DNA from: an uncultured Flavobacteriales bacterium
Lineage (GTDB): Bacteria; Bacteroidota; Bacteroidia; Flavobacteriales; Schleiferiaceae
DNA length: 64,000 nt
Assembly (NCBI GenBank): GCA_950073045.1
Contig: CATMQD010000001.1
Location: 25,400 to 89,399, forward strand
Direction of reading: 5' to 3'
Shown here: positions 3 to 13,600 of the stretch, in pieces
Numbering within the stretch: the stretch's first letter is position 1
Layout: every line of letters begins with the position of its first letter
Position numbers and translations under genes: made by a program
The notes under the pieces: model-generated
What the model was told of the DNA's origin: nothing
What the model saw: the letters and a program-made list of their open reading frames with translations, nothing else
Databases searched by the model: none

Positions 3-173
3 AAGGTAGAGCCCGGTCAGAGCATTAAGAAAGGTCAGCCTATTTTAGTACTAGAAGCCATGAAAATGGAAAATGTGCTAAAGGCCGAAACCGATGCCAC
101 CATCAAATCTGTAAACTGCGAGAAAGGTCAAGCCGTAGAAAAGAACCAGGTTTTAATCGAGTTCGAAGTTTAA
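3..173 (+). CDS. Biotin carboxyl carrier / biotinyl-domain protein, 3' end (truncated by window start)
   Basis: Manual translation KVEPGQSIKKGQPILVLEAMKMENVLKAE...LIEFEV*; contains the EAMKM biotinylation motif; TAA at 171-173. Confidence 0.9.
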   Translation, partial: KVEPGQSIKKGQPILVLEAMKMENVLKAETDATIKSVNCEKGQAVEKNQVLIEFEV

Positions 174-1285
174 GGTCGCGCTACCGCGAATATTCCAAAG
201 ATATTATTCAACTGAAGGCTAGAGCCATCGGCACTTTTTAGCACCGCTTGCCCGGAAAAGCTAAAGCGCTGATGGTTGTAGCTGGCATTTACTTCGTGGT
301 AATCGCTTATTGATTCTATAGAAAATGTCCCTTGAGCATTGGGATAGGCAGAACTATAGGCCTTCCCATTTTCATCGTAATAAACGATTTCTACCGTTCT
401 TAAGTTATTTGGATTGCTTTCGCGATGTCCTTCCATACGGTAGTCGATATTGATATCGCAATGTGGGCTACCTGGTAACACTACTTTCTCAATCACTTCG
501 GTACATCCCGACTCAAACTCTACAATTGCTTTTACGCGATAACCCGGCTGAAAGCCAACTACCGAATATTGCAAAGCACTGCCACGGCCGGCATTCTGAC
601 CAGCAATTTGCCAGTTTACATTATTAATTCGACCTACACGCTCTTGCACCTCTACTTTTAACTCGGAGCTGGTACTTTTTAATACATGAATTTGAGCTTT
701 ACACTCGGCTCCCGTTTCAATGGTATGCTTAACGGATGGGGTGCAGGTTAATGGTCCCGTGCTGCTCATTTCGATATTAAAGCTTTGATGCTCATTAACA
801 CTTAAGCCAATTAATGAACAGCTATCGCCATAATAGCTACTTGATGGAGCAGACCACATTAAGGGAATATGTCCATTAATCGTATCCGCAAAAAAGTGAT
901 AATCGAAATGCCCCGGTAAAACCGTAGCTCCGCTTGGGTCTTTTAAAGGTAAGGGGCCAGAGTTAAATACTGTGCCCGGACCAGGCTGATCGCTAGGACC
1001 AAATAAGTCGGAACCGCGTAATTTTATGAGCAGAGCCTTTTTAAAGGATGGGCTGTCGGCCGCTAGGGTGCCCGACATAACTAAAACCGAATCCTCCATT
1101 TGATAGGAAGTATACATCTGGTAACCATCTTCTCCAGCAGATAGATTTAAGGGTAATCCATCGAGGGTAGAGTTAATATAAAAACGGGGGCTTTCGGTAA
1201 AAGTACTTTGACTAGGACCATCATCGTCCTTACAGGCGCTAATGGCCGTAAGGAGCGTAAAAAATAGAACTACCTTCTTCATCAT
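170..1285 (-). CDS. Hypothetical lipoprotein, third gene of the ECF operon
   Basis: Lipobox ISAC followed by acidic KDDD; beta-rich with Cys pairs; overlaps the upstream gene by 4 bp. Confidence 0.75.
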   Translation of the reverse strand: MMKKVVLFFTLLTAISACKDDDGPSQSTFTESPRFYINSTLDGLPLNLSAGEDGYQMYTSYQMEDSVLVMSGTLAADSPSFKKALLIKLRGSDLFGPSDQPGPGTVFNSGPLPLKDPSGATVLPGHFDYHFFADTINGHIPLMWSAPSSSYYGDSCSLIGLSVNEHQSFNIEMSSTGPLTCTPSVKHTIETGAECKAQIHVLKSTSSELKVEVQERVGRINNVNWQIAGQNAGRGSALQYSVVGFQPGYRVKAIVEFESGCTEVIEKVVLPGSPHCDINIDYRMEGHRESNPNNLRTVEIVYYDENGKAYSSAYPNAQGTFSIESISDYHEVNASYNHQRFSFSGQAVLKSADGSSLQLNNIFGIFAVARP

Positions 1286-2850
1286 TCTTCAAATAATCGA
1301 TACCTCAACTGAAGGTTGGCTTGCCCAGGTCTGTGATCTGCCTCAAAGTTTTGAGCATTATCGCGGCTGATATCATTTAAAGCAAAGGCATAGGTGAAAG
1401 CCATGCTTAAACGTGGGCTATACTGATACTGATAGCTTATAGAGGCTGAGAAATTCAGCGGCTCAAAGCTATCCATCTTCTTATTGTACGAAGTTTCCTC
1501 CACGCGAGGGTCTTGTTTAAATACGCGTGTGGTTTTAGTTTCATCCATGCTTACCGTTAGTAATACATCGGTATTTAAACCTAAGCCAAAACGATGCTTA
1601 GGAGCAATATTGTAATTGAAGGCGAGAGGAATGCGAATAGAGGAAAGGTATTTATAATGACGGTGGGTCTCTACCTCGGTACGTCCTAAGCCAAAGAAAG
1701 TACTATCGTGCAAGGTTTCCAGACCGATATCGCCGCTGCGATTATAAATAGCACCGGTGCTAATAGAAACTCGATCGTTCCAACCATATTCGTATTCTAT
1801 TCCGGCTTGCCAACCAGGACTACCCATTTTACCATTTAAAGGTGCACTTAGAGCTGGGCCAGCTACAGCGTAAATGCGAGAATAAGCTTGAGGGATATAA
1901 GGTTCCTTCTCCACTGATGGAGAGCCCAAGTTTGGATTAAGATCTACAAACATTAAATCGCTAGAAAGAGGCAGCTCCGCTGGGGCGAGATTATTAATTC
2001 CTAAGGATTGTGCGGCTACAGATTCTGCTGCTATGGCACTAAAATTAGATTGCACAGCAGGTAAAACCGGCACCGCATCTGTACTTTCGGATGCATTAGC
2101 AAAGTTTTGTACCGGTGGCTGTGCTCCAGAGTTTCCTCCATTGGCGGAGTTAGATGCAATTGCCGCTTCATCCGCTAAAGCTGGATTGCTGATGCTTCCT
2201 TCTTCTTTAGTTGGGTTTATTTCGCTAGGCTGGGTGCTTTTGATGCTTTGAGGCTCAGCTACTTCATCTGCTGCGATAGGCTGCTGAGGAGAATAGATAA
2301 TTGCGCCCTTAGGTTGCTGCCAAAGCGCGGCAACTGCTAGGCTAGCCAATAATAAAATGGCTGCTGCGCTACGCCAGAAGTAAGCTAAAGGACGACGATC
2401 ACGTTGATCGAGGATGGCCTCCATGCGGGCCCAATTATCCGGATTAAAGGCAAAACTAGAATCAGAAGCTTTCTTTTGGAAGAGGTCTTGCATTTCTGCG
2501 CCGCTCATCCCCTGTTCTGGTCCGAGCTCATCTTCCAGGGCTTCCCAATTGGCGGGATTAAATGGGAAGTGTACTTTGGCCATTTTATCGCGGAAAAGCT
2601 TTTTATACTCTTGCTCGGATAAGGGCTGCTGGGGGTCTGTCATCTGCTCGAAAGCCTCCCAATTGGCAGGGTTAAAAGCAAAGGATGCCTCAGGAAGTTT
2701 ATCCTGAAACAGTTTTTTAAACTCCTGCTCCGATAAAGGTTCCTGTGGATCTGCCATTTGCTCAAAGGCATCCCAGTTGGAAGGGTTGAACTCAAAGTTC
2801 GCCTCTCCCAGCTTGTCTTCAAACAGTTTTTTAAGGTCCTTCTCTTTCAT
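1282..2850 (-). CDS. Putative dual-membrane-spanning anti-sigma factor (N-terminal repeats, TM helix, disordered linker, C-terminal outer-membrane beta-barrel)
   Basis: No cleavable signal peptide; TM segment YFWRSAAAILLLASLAVAALW at about residues 157-177; S/A/P/E-rich linker; alternating-pattern beta strands ending ANLQLRYRLFEE; 5 bp downstream of an ECF sigma gene. Confidence 0.75.
   Translation of the reverse strand: MKEKDLKKLFEDKLGEANFEFNPSNWDAFEQMADPQEPLSEQEFKKLFQDKLPEASFAFNPANWEAFEQMTDPQQPLSEQEYKKLFRDKMAKVHFPFNPANWEALEDELGPEQGMSGAEMQDLFQKKASDSSFAFNPDNWARMEAILDQRDRRPLAYFWRSAAAILLLASLAVAALWQQPKGAIIYSPQQPIAADEVAEPQSIKSTQPSEINPTKEEGSISNPALADEAAIASNSANGGNSGAQPPVQNFANASESTDAVPVLPAVQSNFSAIAAESVAAQSLGINNLAPAELPLSSDLMFVDLNPNLGSPSVEKEPYIPQAYSRIYAVAGPALSAPLNGKMGSPGWQAGIEYEYGWNDRVSISTGAIYNRSGDIGLETLHDSTFFGLGRTEVETHRHYKYLSSIRIPLAFNYNIAPKHRFGLGLNTDVLLTVSMDETKTTRVFKQDPRVEETSYNKKMDSFEPLNFSASISYQYQYSPRLSMAFTYAFALNDISRDNAQNFEADHRPGQANLQLRYRLFEE
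2389..2844 (-). repeat. Four tandem 38-aa (114-bp) repeats, consensus ExExKKLFxDKxxxxxFxFNPxNWxxxE
   Basis: Residues 3-40, 41-78, 79-116 and 117-154 align without gaps; AAACAGTTTTTTAA recurs at 2707 and 2821. Confidence 0.95.
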
Positions 2851-2855
2851 GACCT

Positions 2856-3452
2856 TCAGGCTACATTATCCATTAACTTCCGCATCATCTCCTGCAATTT
2901 CTTGCGCGCACTACTTAAATGCCATTTGCTGGTGCCTTCACTCATGCCCAGCTTTTCGGCAATCTCCTTATGATTATACCCGTCAATTATATAGAGGTTA
3001 AATACCTTCTGACTAACAGGTGGTAATTTTTGTACTAGGGCCAATAACTCTTCTGCATCGAAGCGCTTGTCCGCATCATTATAATCCATCTCTTCCAAAG
3101 AGGCCAATTGCATAGGTTCTTCTACATAATCAACTTTGGAGCGTTGATTTTTTCGGTACTCATCAATAGCGGTATTGATGGTAATTCGACGAATCCATGC
3201 CTCAAACGGAACTGAGCTAGAATAAGAATCGAGGTTATTGAGAATTTTAAGGAAGGCCTTATTAAGTAGAAACTCCGCGTCTTCCTTATTTCTTTCGTAT
3301 CGAAAACAAACTGCCATGAGGATGCCATAGCACTGCTTGTACAGGCTATACTGCGCTTTCCGCTCACCGCGGATACATCCATCTAATAGTTGTTGGTCGA
3401 TACTCATTTTCTTCCCGGACCAATGTATTGATTTCCGATTTAAATCGGACAC
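2856..3452 (-). CDS. ECF-type RNA polymerase sigma-70 factor
   Basis: Region 2 (DAEFLLNKAFLKIL; WIRRITINTAID) and region 4 (LPPVSQKVFNLYIIDGYNHKEIAEKLGMSEGTSKWHLSSARKKL); true start may be the ATG of MSIDQQ. Confidence 0.95.
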   Translation of the reverse strand: MSDLNRKSIHWSGKKMSIDQQLLDGCIRGERKAQYSLYKQCYGILMAVCFRYERNKEDAEFLLNKAFLKILNNLDSYSSSVPFEAWIRRITINTAIDEYRKNQRSKVDYVEEPMQLASLEEMDYNDADKRFDAEELLALVQKLPPVSQKVFNLYIIDGYNHKEIAEKLGMSEGTSKWHLSSARKKLQEMMRKLMDNVA

Positions 3453-3472
3453 AATTATCTCCTTGGAATAGG

Positions 3473-3499
3473 ATGACGCTGGCTTTCCCCAAACAGTTG
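3473..3499 (-). promoter_or_regulatory. Candidate ECF-dependent (autoregulatory) promoter
   Basis: Minus strand CAAC-N17-CGTCAT upstream of the sigma gene, matching the generic ECF -35 AAC / -10 CGT pattern. Confidence 0.4.
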
Positions 3500-3503
3500 G
3501 GTA

Positions 3504-4427
3504 CTAGGACAATTTCATGTCAAATCGAGTTAAATCGATAAAACGCATTACCCTTTTATGCAGATCAGCACGGTCTAAATCCAAGAGCTTATGGGTTCCA
3601 AATTTCTCTACACAAAAGGAGGCTAAAGCTGAACCGTAGATAATGCCGCGCTTCATGCTATCGAAAGAAACCTCATCGCTAGAGCAGATGTGACCGATAA
3701 AACCTCCGGCAAAAGTATCGCCAGCTCCGGTTGGATCAAAAACCTCTTCTAATGGTAAAGCTGGTGCATAGAACAACTCATCGTCATGGAATAAAAGGGC
3801 ACCATGCTCTCCTTTTTTAATGATTAGATATTTCGGTCCCATCTCGAAAATCTTCTGGGCCGCTTTTACCAAGGAATACTCTCCGCTTAATTGGCGGGCC
3901 TCCTCATCATTAATCGTTAAGAGGTCTACTTCTTTAAGAACCTCTTTTAATTCTGGCATTGCCACATCCATCCAAAAGTTCATGGTATCCATAATTACCA
4001 ATTTCGGACGTTGCTTCATTTGTTTTAATACCTTCATTTGAACTGCAGGGGTAAGATTGCCCAACATTAGGTATTCGGCCTCGCGGGCTTTCTCTGGAAG
4101 AATGGGATCGAAGTTTTCTAAAACGTTTAATTCGGTAATTAAACTGTCGCGAGTATTCATATCATTGTGGTATTCTCCCTTCCAGAAAAAGGTTTTTCCA
4201 TCTTCAACTCGCTTAATCCCTTCGGTATTGATGCCCTTTTTTCGCATCAGCTCTAATTTTTCTTCAGGAAAATCTTCCCCGATAATCGAAACGATGGAGA
4301 TATCATTAAAAAGATTGGAGGCCGACAGTGAAGCGTAAGTCGCTGATCCACCGATAATTCTACCCGATTCTCCAAAAGGAGTAATCAATTCATCAAAGGC
4401 TACCGTTCCAACAATTGTAAGGCTCAT
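3504..4427 (-). CDS. PfkB family carbohydrate/nucleoside kinase
   Basis: GGSATYAS N-terminal motif and DPTGAGDTFAGGF PfkB signature. Confidence 0.92.
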   Translation of the reverse strand: MSLTIVGTVAFDELITPFGESGRIIGGSATYASLSASNLFNDISIVSIIGEDFPEEKLELMRKKGINTEGIKRVEDGKTFFWKGEYHNDMNTRDSLITELNVLENFDPILPEKAREAEYLMLGNLTPAVQMKVLKQMKQRPKLVIMDTMNFWMDVAMPELKEVLKEVDLLTINDEEARQLSGEYSLVKAAQKIFEMGPKYLIIKKGEHGALLFHDDELFYAPALPLEEVFDPTGAGDTFAGGFIGHICSSDEVSFDSMKRGIIYGSALASFCVEKFGTHKLLDLDRADLHKRVMRFIDLTRFDMKLS

Positions 4428-10600: not shown

Positions 10601-13600
10601 GGTAAATGAACTTACATCAAGCGCTAAGCTTGACACTGAGCAATTGTCACTACTGCCATTGTCTATCATTCCAGCACTAATACTCGCTGTGCCATTGGCA
10701 TCTAGGTAAACCGTAATATTTTGTGTTGCAACCATTGGCGACACGGTATCCATCACGGTTACAGTAGCAGCTGTGTTGGCGCTATTTCCGCTGGCATCCG
10801 TTACGGTAAGAACCACGGTGTTATTACCTAGGTCTCCGCATCCAAAGCTTGTTTTACTTAAGCTATATGTGCTAATGCCACAATTGTCATTACTTCCATT
10901 ATCCACCATCATGGTGCTAAGGCTTGCGCTTCCATTAGCATCTAAATAAATAGTAGTGTTTTGAGCAATGGCCGTTGGTGCACGGTTATCTTCTACCGTT
11001 ACAGTGGCAGTAGCAGTACTGCTATTACCATTATTATCGGTAACCATTATGGTTACGGTATTCGTTCCTAAGTCGCTGCAGCTAAAGCTGGATGGACTAA
11101 CACTCATGCTGGCTATTCCACAAGCATCGCTACTACCATCGTTAATATCCGATGCGCTAATTGAGGCATTACCATTTGCATCTAAAGCAATGGTAATATT
11201 CTTAGAAATCGCAGTCGGGCTAATGGTATCCATCACGGTTAAGGTAGCCGAAGTGCTATTGCTATTTCCTGAGGCATCTTCTACCGTAAGGTTTACCGTA
11301 TTAGGGCCCACATTGCTGCATCCGAAGCTAGAAACATCAATACTACTGCTAGATACGCCACAGTTATCACTGCTTCCTCCTTCGAGGTCGGCAGCCGAAA
11401 TGCTAGCACTTCCACTTGCATCTAGATATACAGTGATATTATTAGCTACTGCTACAGGATTTATTACATCCTGCACCGTTACGATTACCGCACTAGAGTT
11501 TTGATTGCCGCTAGCATCACGAGCAAATAAGCTTACGCTATTCGATCCGATATTGGAGCAATCGAAGCTTTCTTGAGAAATCCACAAACTATCGATTCCG
11601 CAATTATCACTGCTGCCATTATTAATCATACTTGCACTTAAACTCGCCATACCATTGGCATCTAAGCTTAGGATTACTGGCTGGGTTTGTACAATCGGAG
11701 CAATATTATCCTCCACAGTAACTGTTGCAGTTTTACTAGTGCTATTTCCATGTACATCTGTAGCTGTAAGCGTTACGGTATTCACTCCTAAATCACCACA
11801 ATTAAAGCTGCTTTTGCTAGCGGTGTAGAATAACTGGTTACTACAGTTATCGGAACTAGCGCTATCCAGTTGGTTCGGAGAAATACTAGCTAAACCAGTA
11901 GCCCCTAATTGCACAGTAATATTGCGGGTTATCACGCTGGGGCTGATGGTATCCAGCACCGTAATTAAGAAATCGGTACTATCTACATTACCATCGACAT
12001 CGGTTACGATCAGGTATTCCTGATTTAAACCTTCATCGCCACAATCAAACACCGCCTGACTTAAACTTGGCGTGATGCCGCAGTTATCCGTAGAATTATT
12101 ATTCACGGTACTAGCCGCAACTGTAACACTGCCGTTGCCATCTAAATACACGGTTAAATCGCGAGACTTCGCTACTGGTGTAATGGTATCGCGAACTTCT
12201 ACCACCGCGGTATTAGTCGCCGAGTTTCCATTTACATCAACCACCGTTAAGACCACAGTATTATTACCCAAATTCGAACAATCGAAACTGCTAATATCTA
12301 AGCTGTAGCTAGCTATACCACAAGCATCGGTGCTACCATTATTAATCATTCCTGGATTAATGCTGGTTTGACCATTAGCATCGAGGTACATAATTAGCGA
12401 TTGGGTATTTACCACTGGTGAAATGGTATCCACCACCAGCACGGAAGCGGTAGCTGTATTGGAAGCCGAGCCACCAGTTGCCTGGGCGGTTACCGTTACT
12501 GTATTCATCCCCACATCCGAACAATCGAAATCGTAAATGTCTAGGAATACTGTATCAATTGAACAAGCATTGGAGGTTCCACTACTAACATCAAACACCT
12601 CAATGCTGGCATCGCCATTAGCATCTAAATAAGCGGTATGCGATTTTGTAGAAATACTCGGACTAATCGTATCTACCACCGTTACTGTAAAGTTGGCGCT
12701 GTTTTGATTTCCAGACTGATCTTGTACTGTGAAGTTCACGGTATTGGCACCTAAGTCATCACAATCGTAATCCTCTTTGCTAATGGTTGTGGATACAATG
12801 GAACAGTTATCACTGCTACCATTATCCGCATCATTAGCGGTAATACTCGCCGAACCATTTCCATCTAAGTAGATCGTTAAGTTCTGCACGCTTGCCACAG
12901 GATTGGTAGTATCCATCACGGTAACCGTAGCGCTGCAAGTACTGGAGTTCCCTGCCTGATCTGTAACTGTAAGCACCACGGTATTGGCACCAAGATCGCT
13001 ACAGCTAAAGCTCATATTATCCAAGCTCAAATTAGCTACACTGCAATTATCCGTTGACCCATTATCAATGTCATTTGGCGTAATTACTGCTGAGCCCGAA
13101 CCATCTAGATATACGGTTAAGTTCTGACAAACTGCGCTTGGAGAAACCGTATCTACCACCGTAACGGTAGCGGTGCAAGTACTCTGATTAGCTGCTTGAT
13201 CCGTAACCGTTAAAGTCACTGTATTCGCACCTTCATCGGCGCAAGTAAATGAAGCCTTGTCTACATCAATATTAGCGACGGAACAATTATCAGATGAGCC
13301 ATTATCTACATCGGCGGCGGTAATGCTAGCATTTCCAGAACCATCGAGGTAAATAGTAAGATTTTGGCAAACCGCCGTAGGAGCAGTGCTGTCTATAACT
13401 GTAACCGTAGCAGTACTGCTATTGGTATTACCCGCCTGATCGGTTACGGTAAGAGTTACGGTATTGGCACCTTCATCGGCACAGCTAAAGCTACTTGGGC
13501 TAACGCTGAGGTTGGTTACGGTACAATTGTCCGAGCTTCCACCATCAACATCGCTTCCGCTGATACTGGCGGCACCGTTACCATCGAGGTAAACATTAAT

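What the first reader, a model, noticed from the sequence alone, without database searches (positions are those of the whole stretch)
2389..2844. Putative sigma-binding motif present four times in tandem
Seen: four gap-free 38-aa copies (KKLFxDK...FxFNPxNWE) fill the whole cytoplasmic region. Copies 1 and 2 are the closest; copy 4, next to the TM, is the most diverged. From recollection, comparable Bacteroidota proteins carry one such motif. Inference: one anti-sigma could bind up to four sigma molecules, or several different ECFs, giving a sharper threshold or signal amplification on proteolysis. I know of no described multivalent anti-sigma of this kind.
Basis: partly seen in the sequence, partly recalled or inferred. 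Interest (0 to 1): 0.78.

Follow-up and report, generated by a model that had tools for sequence, protein, structure and literature searches.

The report
Anti-sigma factor with fourfold sigma-binding motif
A Bacteroidota envelope-spanning (Dma-type) anti-sigma factor carries four conserved tandem copies of the short cytoplasmic segment that its relatives carry once, and that in Bacteroides Dma1 is enough to hold the sigma factor; it could therefore hold several sigma molecules at once, which is untested.

Summary
The 522-aa protein (window 1282-2850, minus strand) starts with four gap-free 38-aa units (aa 6-157). These fill the cytoplasmic part, and a TM helix, a disordered tether and an OmpA-like beta-barrel follow. 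The gene lies 5 nt after an ECF sigma gene. This is the published Dma architecture (Dma1/Das1, Reo/EcfO).

The unit resembles the N-terminal 40 aa of Dma1, the published Das1-binding bait. The profile-profile score exceeds all 600 controls, but plain HMM search does not connect them.

One copy is the family norm: 108 of 122 representative clusters. Multi-copy forms recur, with 2 copies in about 7% and 3-4 copies in about 4%, from at least eight separate duplications. Orthologues at the same locus carry 1, 3 or 4 units. All four units are conserved across eleven 4-copy orthologues (73-80% identity, no indels), so the array is kept by selection. Unit 4 is the ancestral one.

Binding of several sigma molecules is plausible but untested. 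Binding of different ECFs is unlikely, because the sigma paralogues have their own partners.

I rate it a new variant of a known kind. The scan has noted similar multi-copy N-termini before on other DNA (e1-954879, e1-5236115). The genome search closed mid-session.

The parts
2856..3407 (-). ECF sigma factor gene. It is 183 aa if started at ATG 3407, as in the orthologues. The longest ORF starts at GTG 3452 and gives 198 aa.
   Evidence: Pfam Sigma70_r2, Sigma70_r4_2 and Sigma70_ECF, and TIGR02937 at 92.5 bits. It is 30% identical to Das1 and Das2 (E 5e-26 and 1e-24). The orthologous sigma genes encode 183 aa. The closest PDB sequences are ECF sigmas SigE, SigH and SigW.
1282..2850 (-). [quoted passage not shown] It starts 5 nt after the sigma stop codon.
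   Evidence: ORF listing. 28 homologues, nearly all hitting only OMP_b-brl_2 where Pfam is recorded. AlphaFold2 architecture. Conserved synteny behind the sigma gene.
2722..2835 (-). Unit 1 (aa 6-43): LKKLFEDKLGEANFEFNPSNWDAFEQMADPQEPLSEQE
   Evidence: It scores 36.0 bits (i-E 4e-9) with the independent single-unit HMM. It is the duplicate partner of unit 2. Mean identity across eleven orthologues is 80%.
2608..2721 (-). Unit 2 (aa 44-81): FKKLFQDKLPEASFAFNPANWEAFEQMTDPQQPLSEQE
   Evidence: It shares 29 of 38 residues with unit 1. It scores 36.4 bits, i-E 3e-9. It is absent from the 3-copy orthologues. Mean identity across orthologues is 73%.
2494..2607 (-). Unit 3 (aa 82-119): YKKLFRDKMAKVHFPFNPANWEALEDELGPEQGMSGAE
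   Evidence: It scores 31.8 bits, i-E 9e-8. It is orthologous to unit 2 of the 3-copy proteins (83% identity to P0012 unit 2). Mean identity across orthologues is 80%.
2380..2493 (-). Unit 4 (aa 120-157): MQDLFQKKASDSSFAFNPDNWARMEAILDQRDRRPLAY. This is the membrane-proximal, ancestral unit.
   Evidence: It is the best match to the single-unit family consensus (47.0 bits, i-E 1.5e-12). Single-copy relatives align from their residue 1 to this unit (profile position 77). N139, W140, M143, E144 and L147 are invariant across 28 homologues.
2317..2379 (-). Single transmembrane helix (about aa 158-178, FWRSAAAILLLASLAVAALWQ)
   Evidence: AlphaFold2 models a helix at 154-177. The stretch is hydrophobic in the sequence. 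W159, R160, S161 and A163-I165 are conserved.
1915..2316 (-). Low-complexity, disordered periplasmic tether (about aa 179-312)
   Evidence: AlphaFold2 pLDDT is about 30 with no secondary structure across 178-312. The alignment is poorly conserved here.
1288..1884 (-). C-terminal outer-membrane beta-barrel domain (aa 323-521)
   Evidence: Pfam OMP_b-brl_2 at aa 346-495, E 1.1e-5, 26.1 bits, against a cut-off of 27. AlphaFold2 models strands with pLDDT mostly above 90. Foldseek hits the OmpA transmembrane domain, Ail, OmpX and NspA at E 5e-8 to 2e-6.
170..1285 (-). Downstream lipoprotein gene (371 aa). It overlaps the anti-sigma stop by 4 nt and is the third gene of the conserved operon.
   Evidence: ORF with a lipoprotein-type signal (MMKKVVLFFTLLTAISAC). 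No Pfam family matches it. A 370-375-aa gene follows the Dma gene in the 4-, 3- and 1-copy orthologous loci.

Best explanation
[quoted passage not shown] It has a cytoplasmic sigma-binding head, one inner-membrane helix, a disordered periplasmic tether and an outer-membrane beta-barrel, and it is co-transcribed with its ECF sigma factor.

The head is not one sigma-binding segment but four tandem copies of it. Each copy is about 28 aa forming two short helices, followed by an acidic, proline-containing linker of about 10 aa. The array grew by stepwise duplication of the ancestral membrane-proximal unit. Orthologues at the same locus have 1, 3 or 4 units, and the last step duplicated unit 1.

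Shown: the units are real, homologous to the family's single unit, similar to the Das1-binding Dma1(1-40), and all four are kept by purifying selection with fixed spacing.

Inferred: each unit can bind the cognate sigma, so one chain offers several docking sites. Sigma and anti-sigma are probably made in similar amounts, so the likeliest effect is a high-capacity, high-avidity membrane sink. A sigma that leaves one unit would be recaptured by a neighbouring unit. This would give a tighter OFF state and a higher, sharper activation threshold, rather than release of four sigmas per cleavage.
For: - Architecture and context: and synteny.
- Published model: Dma1(1:40)-GST pulls down Das1, and Reo sequesters EcfO through its N-terminus (PMC10927553). 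Dma2 has the same domain order (PMC13088901).
- Link to the published bait: I identified Dma1 and Dma2 through the authors' primers. Each has a single N-terminal segment of the same pattern. Dma1 reads L-KEKL-x11-WExLExxL where the unit consensus reads F-KEKL-x11-WEAMEALL. hhalign gives Prob 67-86% and P 5e-6 to 5e-5. Scores of 21.0 and 21.5 exceed all 400 random N-termini (maximum 18.4) and all 200 shuffles (maximum 16.5).
- Each unit is a full member of the family: an independent HMM detects every unit.
- Selection keeps all four: 73-80% identity and no indels across eleven orthologues that are only about 60% identical overall. Unit 1 is orthologous to unit 1 and unit 2 to unit 2, so the array is old.
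- The amplification recurs: at least eight separate lineages show it.
- The N-terminus looks like a bind-and-fold segment: AlphaFold2 gives two helices per unit with low pLDDT (45-59) and no confident packing between units.
Against: - No binding or stoichiometry evidence exists for this protein.
- Sequence similarity to Dma1 and Dma2 is weak. HMM search alone does not find them, and the hhalign probabilities are only 67-86%.
- Four ECF sigmas of about 21 kDa on sites 38 residues apart would be crowded, so full occupancy may be impossible.
- Single-unit relatives evidently work with one unit, so the extra copies are not needed for basic function.
- The sigma's membership of group ECF21 could not be tested here.
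Confidence: 0.45

Rival explanations
1. Only the ancestral, membrane-proximal unit 4 binds the sigma. Units 1-3 have acquired another conserved role, for example docking a protease or adaptor, docking another regulator, or acting as a competing pseudo-site that tunes release.
For: Unit 4 matches the single-unit consensus best (47 bits against 32-36) and is the unit aligned to single-copy relatives. Units 1-3 share derived features that unit 4 lacks: the KKLF start, AFEQM, and the conserved DPxxPLSEQE linker.
Against: Units 1-3 retain every position that is strongly conserved in the single-unit family (LF, K, F-x-F-N-P, N-W, E), and each scores significantly with the independent HMM. I see no evidence for another partner.
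Confidence: 0.22
2. The units bind cooperatively. Two or more units wrap one sigma molecule, for example one unit on region 2 and one on region 4. This would give a tighter complex of 1:1 or 1:2 and not 1:4.
For: Known ECF anti-sigma domains contact both sigma regions 2 and 4 (established knowledge for class I and for CnrY-type class II domains; reviews listed). Steric crowding argues against four sigmas on 152 residues. Two-unit forms are the commonest multi-copy state.
Against: One unit is the norm in the family, and 40 aa of Dma1 are sufficient for pull-down. Copy numbers of 3 also occur.
Confidence: 0.2
3. The four units bind different ECF sigma factors, which would make the protein a hub that cross-regulates several regulons.
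For: The genome encodes about 11 ECF sigmas, and units 1/2, 3 and 4 differ in sequence.
Against: The four closest sigma paralogues each sit directly upstream of their own membrane protein with a unit-like N-terminus. Three of these partners (C161, C13, C53) look Dma-like and one (C6) does not. Units 1 and 2 are near-duplicates of each other.
Confidence: 0.07
4. The array is a neutral repeat expansion with no functional consequence.
For: Copy number varies among orthologues (1, 3, 4), and tandem duplication of a 114-nt unit is mechanistically easy.
Against: The four-copy array is old and indel-free. Each unit is more conserved (73-80%) than the protein as a whole (about 60%) across eleven orthologues. 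Independent expansions recur.
Confidence: 0.04

Closest known systems
[quoted passage not shown]
   Same: The gene lies directly after an ECF sigma gene. The protein has a short cytoplasmic N-terminus, one TM helix, a long disordered tether and a C-terminal OMP_b-brl_2-type small beta-barrel. The N-terminal segment has the same pattern and spacing (KEKL-x11-WExhExxL). A lipoprotein gene lies next to the pair (NigD2 beside das1-dma1; an unrelated 371-aa lipoprotein here).
   Different: Dma1 has one N-terminal segment in a 48-aa cytoplasmic part, and this protein has four in 157 aa. Sequence similarity is remote: the full-length profile gives only 13 bits for Dma1, and the sigmas are 30% identical. 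The neighbouring lipoprotein is not NigD by Pfam.
Dma2/Das2 (BT_1558/BT_1559) of B. thetaiotaomicron (PMC13088901)
   Same: It is a three-gene operon of sigma, Dma and a protein of unknown function. Dma2 has a single N-terminal unit-like segment (DLFRTRLADAGMTVRDGFWEELSQDI; hhalign Prob 67-86%).
   Different: Dma2 has one unit and is shorter (350 aa). Its sigma and anti-sigma genes overlap by 17 nt, where this operon has a 5-nt gap.
Single-unit Dma-like family found here (4,271 representative clusters at E<=1e-3; for example P0028, the one-unit orthologue at the same locus)
   Same: These proteins have the same barrel, tether, TM helix and unit, and P0028, P0014 and P0005 share the same synteny.
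   Different: They differ only in unit copy number: 1 in about 89% of clusters, 2 in about 7%, and 3-4 in about 4%.
Class II anti-sigma domains (CnrY type)
   Same: Both are very short cytoplasmic sigma-binding segments made of two helices, without a zinc motif, on a single-pass membrane protein. This is a functional analogy based on established knowledge.
   Different: There is no detectable sequence similarity to any PDB chain. Membership was not tested structurally. CnrY has a single copy and no outer-membrane domain.

Membership tests
[quoted passage not shown] | Encoded next to, and co-transcribed with, an ECF sigma factor | tested here: met
   The sigma gene ends 5 nt upstream on the same strand. 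The pair is conserved in the orthologous loci.
[quoted passage not shown] | The partner sigma belongs to group ECF21 | not testable with these tools
   No ECF-group models are available here. The sigma is 30% identical to Das1 and Das2 (E 5e-26 and 1e-24). It falls below the cut-offs of the Bacteroidota-specific NCBIfam models.
[quoted passage not shown] | Short cytoplasmic N-terminal sigma-binding region (about 40 aa in Dma1) | tested here: inconclusive
   Similarity to Dma1(1-40) and to the Dma2 N-terminus is met: hhalign P 5e-6 to 5e-5, above all 600 controls. Plain HMM search does not detect them. Binding itself cannot be tested here.
[quoted passage not shown] | One alpha-helical TM segment followed by a long intrinsically disordered region | tested here: met
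   AlphaFold2 gives a helix at 154-177, then residues 178-312 with pLDDT about 30 and no secondary structure.
[quoted passage not shown] | C-terminal small outer-membrane beta-barrel (OMP_b-brl_2) | tested here: met
   PF13568 at E 1.1e-5, 26.1 bits, just under the cut-off of 27. The family is precomputed for most homologues. The AlphaFold2 barrel has pLDDT mostly above 90. Foldseek hits OmpA, Ail and OmpX at E about 1e-7. DSSP shows about 10 strand segments, so the strand count (8 in Dma1) is not settled.
[quoted passage not shown] | One polypeptide demonstrably spanning both membranes | not testable with these tools
   This needs fractionation or double tagging, as was done for Dma1.
Class I (zinc-binding or four-helix) anti-sigma domain | An anti-sigma domain of about 80-90 aa matching zf-HC2/RsrA-type models, often with an HxxxCxxC motif | tested here: not met
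   No Pfam or NCBIfam anti-sigma model hits the N-terminus at E<=1. The units contain no Cys or His motif.
Class II (CnrY-type) anti-sigma domain | A short two-helix peptide that clamps sigma regions 2 and 4 | not tested
   Two helices per unit are predicted, but no complex model could be made. There is no sequence match in the PDB.

The most novel reading that the evidence does not exclude
Tandem amplification of a minimal sigma-binding peptide creates a genuinely multivalent anti-sigma factor, in which one membrane protein holds two to four copies of its sigma. This stoichiometry has not been described for any anti-sigma factor. It evolved convergently at least eight times within the Dma-like family, which implies that copy number is a tunable parameter of ECF signalling (threshold, leak and shut-off kinetics).
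Probability: 0.35. Interest if true: 0.7.

Novelty: new variant of a known kind. Interest (0 to 1): 0.5.

Why it matters
Anti-sigma factors are generally treated as 1:1 inhibitors (some act as dimers). A natural series of orthologues with 1, 3 and 4 copies of the binding peptide, at one conserved locus, provides a ready-made experiment on how binding-site number shapes the threshold, leakiness and reset of an ECF switch. It also pins down the minimal sigma-binding motif of the recently described Dma family (roughly h-x-K-L-x11-W-x-x-h-E-x-x-L), which the published work located only as 'the first 40 residues'. Such short, stackable modules could be useful for synthetic ECF circuits. If only one unit binds, the finding reduces to a repeat-expanded Dma homologue of modest interest.

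Tried and rejected
1. I looked for a Pfam or NCBIfam family for the N-terminus. There is none; the only hits are spurious and weak.

2. A word-seeded homologue search restricted to aa 1-160 returned only the same small clade, so it said nothing about distant relatives.

3. HMMs of the unit and of the full-length family fail to detect Dma1 or Dma2 significantly. Only profile-profile comparison with empirical controls links them.

4. A homologue search with Dma1, intended to build a diverse Dma1 profile, listed only hits of 76% identity or more, so the Dma1 profile stayed shallow.

The planned phylum-wide census and the search of a Bacteroides genome for Dma3 could not be run. The census therefore rests on the best 150 of 4,271 representative hits, which are biased towards relatives of this protein.

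6. I considered a pseudo-multimer fold by reading sigma and anti-sigma as one chain. The genes are in different frames here and in every fetched orthologous locus. I did not try to force this, so no complex model exists.

7. I rejected a second copy of this exact motif elsewhere in the genome: no other ORF scores below E = 0.5. More diverged unit-like N-termini do exist on other anti-sigma candidates.

8. I rejected gene conversion as the reason units 1 and 2 are alike. Unit 1 is closest to unit 1, and unit 2 to unit 2, across species.

9. A PDB sequence search with the N-terminal 177 aa found nothing at E<=10.

Full report
**Observation.** The minus-strand ORF at window 1282-2850 encodes 522 aa and begins 5 nt after the stop of an ECF sigma gene. 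A lipoprotein gene overlaps its end by 4 nt. Residues 6-157 are four 38-aa units in exact phase. Identities out of 38 are 29 (u1/u2), 20 (u2/u3), 17 (u1/u3), 14 (u2/u4), 12 (u3/u4) and 11 (u1/u4). L, F, K, F, FNP, NW and E are invariant in all four units. TRF detects the 114-nt period. As a non-circular test I built an HMM from 121 single-unit relatives outside this clade. It finds four separate domains here (i-E 4e-9, 3e-9, 9e-8 and 1.5e-12 against the genome's 17,364 ORFs) and nothing else below E = 0.5. The observation and its coordinates are confirmed.

**What the protein is.** AlphaFold2, run with 28 homologues, gives two short helices per unit (pLDDT 45-59). It then gives a TM helix (154-177), a disordered stretch (178-312, pLDDT about 30) and a confident beta-barrel (323-521). 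The barrel matches Pfam OMP_b-brl_2 just under the cut-off. Foldseek matches it to the OmpA transmembrane domain, Ail, OmpX and NspA. Dma1 of B. thetaiotaomicron is an anti-sigma factor with exactly this domain order. Its first 40 residues fused to GST pull down the sigma Das1, and Reo of B. fragilis behaves likewise (PMC10927553). Dma2/Das2 share the layout in a three-gene operon (PMC13088901).

**Is the unit the sigma-binding element?** I recovered Dma2 and Dma1 by searching public contigs with the authors' own primers. The Das1, Dma1 and Dma2 starts and the Dma1 end match the primers. Dma1 (417 aa) has a 48-aa cytoplasmic part, MEEKELWMNKLKEKLGDYSEPLPASGWEQLEKELMPPVER... Dma2 begins MKKENDEITDLFRTRLADAGMTVRDGFWEELSQDI... 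Both show the unit's pattern with identical spacing: KEKL-x11-WExLExxL in Dma1, against the unit consensus KEKL-x11-WEAMEALL. Plain HMMs do not reach them. Profile-profile comparison gives Prob 67-86% and P 5e-6 to 5e-5. In an empirical control their scores (21.0 and 21.5) exceed all 400 random N-termini of this genome (maximum 18.4) and all 200 shuffles (maximum 16.5). The position, architecture and gene context are also identical. I therefore accept homology of the unit with the experimentally defined sigma-binding region, with moderate confidence. The sigmas are 30% identical.

**Is multi-copy the norm?** It is not the norm, but it is not unique either. A full scan of 1.84 billion representatives with the family profile gave 4,271 hits. 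Most of the best 150 are 400-440 aa and align from their first residue to this protein's last unit. Among 122 full-length representatives with a detected TM helix, the cytoplasmic part had these lengths:
- 60 aa or less (one unit): 108
- 61-100 aa (two units): 9
- 101-135 aa: 1
- more than 135 aa (four units): 4

In P0036, P0040, P0086, P0097, P0147, P0154 and P0164, each unit's closest relative is another unit of the same protein. Together with this clade, that makes at least eight independent amplifications. Within the orthologous locus (PfkB kinase, sigma, Dma, 370-aa protein, biotin-lipoyl protein, 555-aa protein, M50 protease), proteins carry 4 (P0005), 3 (P0014) or 1 (P0028) units. Units 3 and 4 here are orthologous to units 2 and 3 of the three-copy proteins. 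Units 1 and 2 arose by duplicating their unit 1. Unit 4 is the best match to the single-unit consensus, so it is the ancestral unit.

**Selection.** Across eleven four-copy orthologues (59-84% identical overall) the first 160 residues have no indel. Each unit is 73-80% conserved, more than the TM helix at 66%. Unit 1 is closest to unit 1, and unit 2 to unit 2, across species. The array is therefore old and maintained, and it is not homogenised by conversion.

**Genome context of the hypothesis.** The genome has about 11 ECF sigmas. The four closest paralogues are each followed by their own membrane protein with a unit-like N-terminus. The three partners on contigs C161, C13 and C53 look Dma-like, and the one on C6 does not. 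C161 has two unit-like segments and a PF13568 barrel at 29 bits. The C6 and C53 N-termini score above all controls. This argues against the idea that the four units serve different ECFs.

**Mechanism.** I commit, at about 45%, to a multi-site sink. Each unit is a bind-and-fold two-helix peptide able to hold the cognate sigma. Because the two genes are 5 nt apart in one operon, sites probably outnumber sigma molecules. Extra units would then mainly raise capture capacity and rebinding, which would tighten the OFF state and raise the threshold. The rivals are as follows:
- Only unit 4 binds (0.22).
- Two or more units bind one sigma cooperatively (0.20).
- The units bind different ECFs (0.07).
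- The expansion is neutral (0.04).

Nothing here measures binding.

**Novelty.** The Dma architecture is published. The tandem amplification of its sigma-binding segment is not mentioned in the two Dma papers ('repeat' does not occur in that sense), and my literature search did not find it. Earlier AI notes of this scan report the same feature on other DNA (e1-954879 fourfold, e1-5236115 doubled, e1-747071). That agrees with my census. My verdict is a new variant of a known kind, of moderate interest.

**Limits.**
- The Dma1 profile is shallow.
- ECF21 membership of the sigma is untested.

Noticed in passing
own genome, outside the window: contig C161 (reverse-strand coordinates 2343-3677), C13 (reverse-strand 1934-3340), C53 (reverse-strand 10736-12337), C6 20367-21101: Four further ECF sigma paralogues are each followed by a membrane protein with a unit-like N-terminus. 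C161 (445 aa) has two unit-like segments plus a PF13568 barrel. C13 and C53 look Dma-like, with a long tether and a beta-rich C-terminus. C6 (about 240 aa) has one unit (DALFEKELKEHQSSPNEAVWEKI) and no barrel. The motif therefore seems to be a general anti-sigma head in this genome.
   Followed up: partly
L096 8905-9518, L098 8840-9449, L099 4738-5276 (orthologous loci; beyond the left edge of the window): An M50 (RseP-type) site-2 protease gene with PDZ domains lies about 3.4 kb downstream of the Dma gene in the 4-, 3- and 1-copy orthologous loci. It could be the intramembrane protease that cleaves this anti-sigma factor, or it could be coincidental housekeeping synteny.
   Followed up: no
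window 3408-3452 (-): The longest sigma ORF starts at GTG 3452 (198 aa), but the orthologous sigma genes are called at 183 aa. That corresponds to ATG 3407 (MSIDQQLL...), so the true start is probably 3407.
   Followed up: partly
window 170-1285 (-): The 371-aa lipoprotein that overlaps the anti-sigma gene by 4 nt has no Pfam or NCBIfam family. It is conserved (370-375 aa) behind the Dma gene in all orthologous loci examined. It sits where Bacteroides has NigD (beside dma1) or DUF4943 (behind dma2), and it may be the regulated surface component.
   Followed up: partly
L038 5951-6670 (-), human gut metagenome contig carrying das1-dma1: A 239-aa lipoprotein lies divergently upstream of das1. By position this is NigD2 (BT_4719) of the published operon. 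It was used only to confirm the identity of the locus.
   Followed up: no
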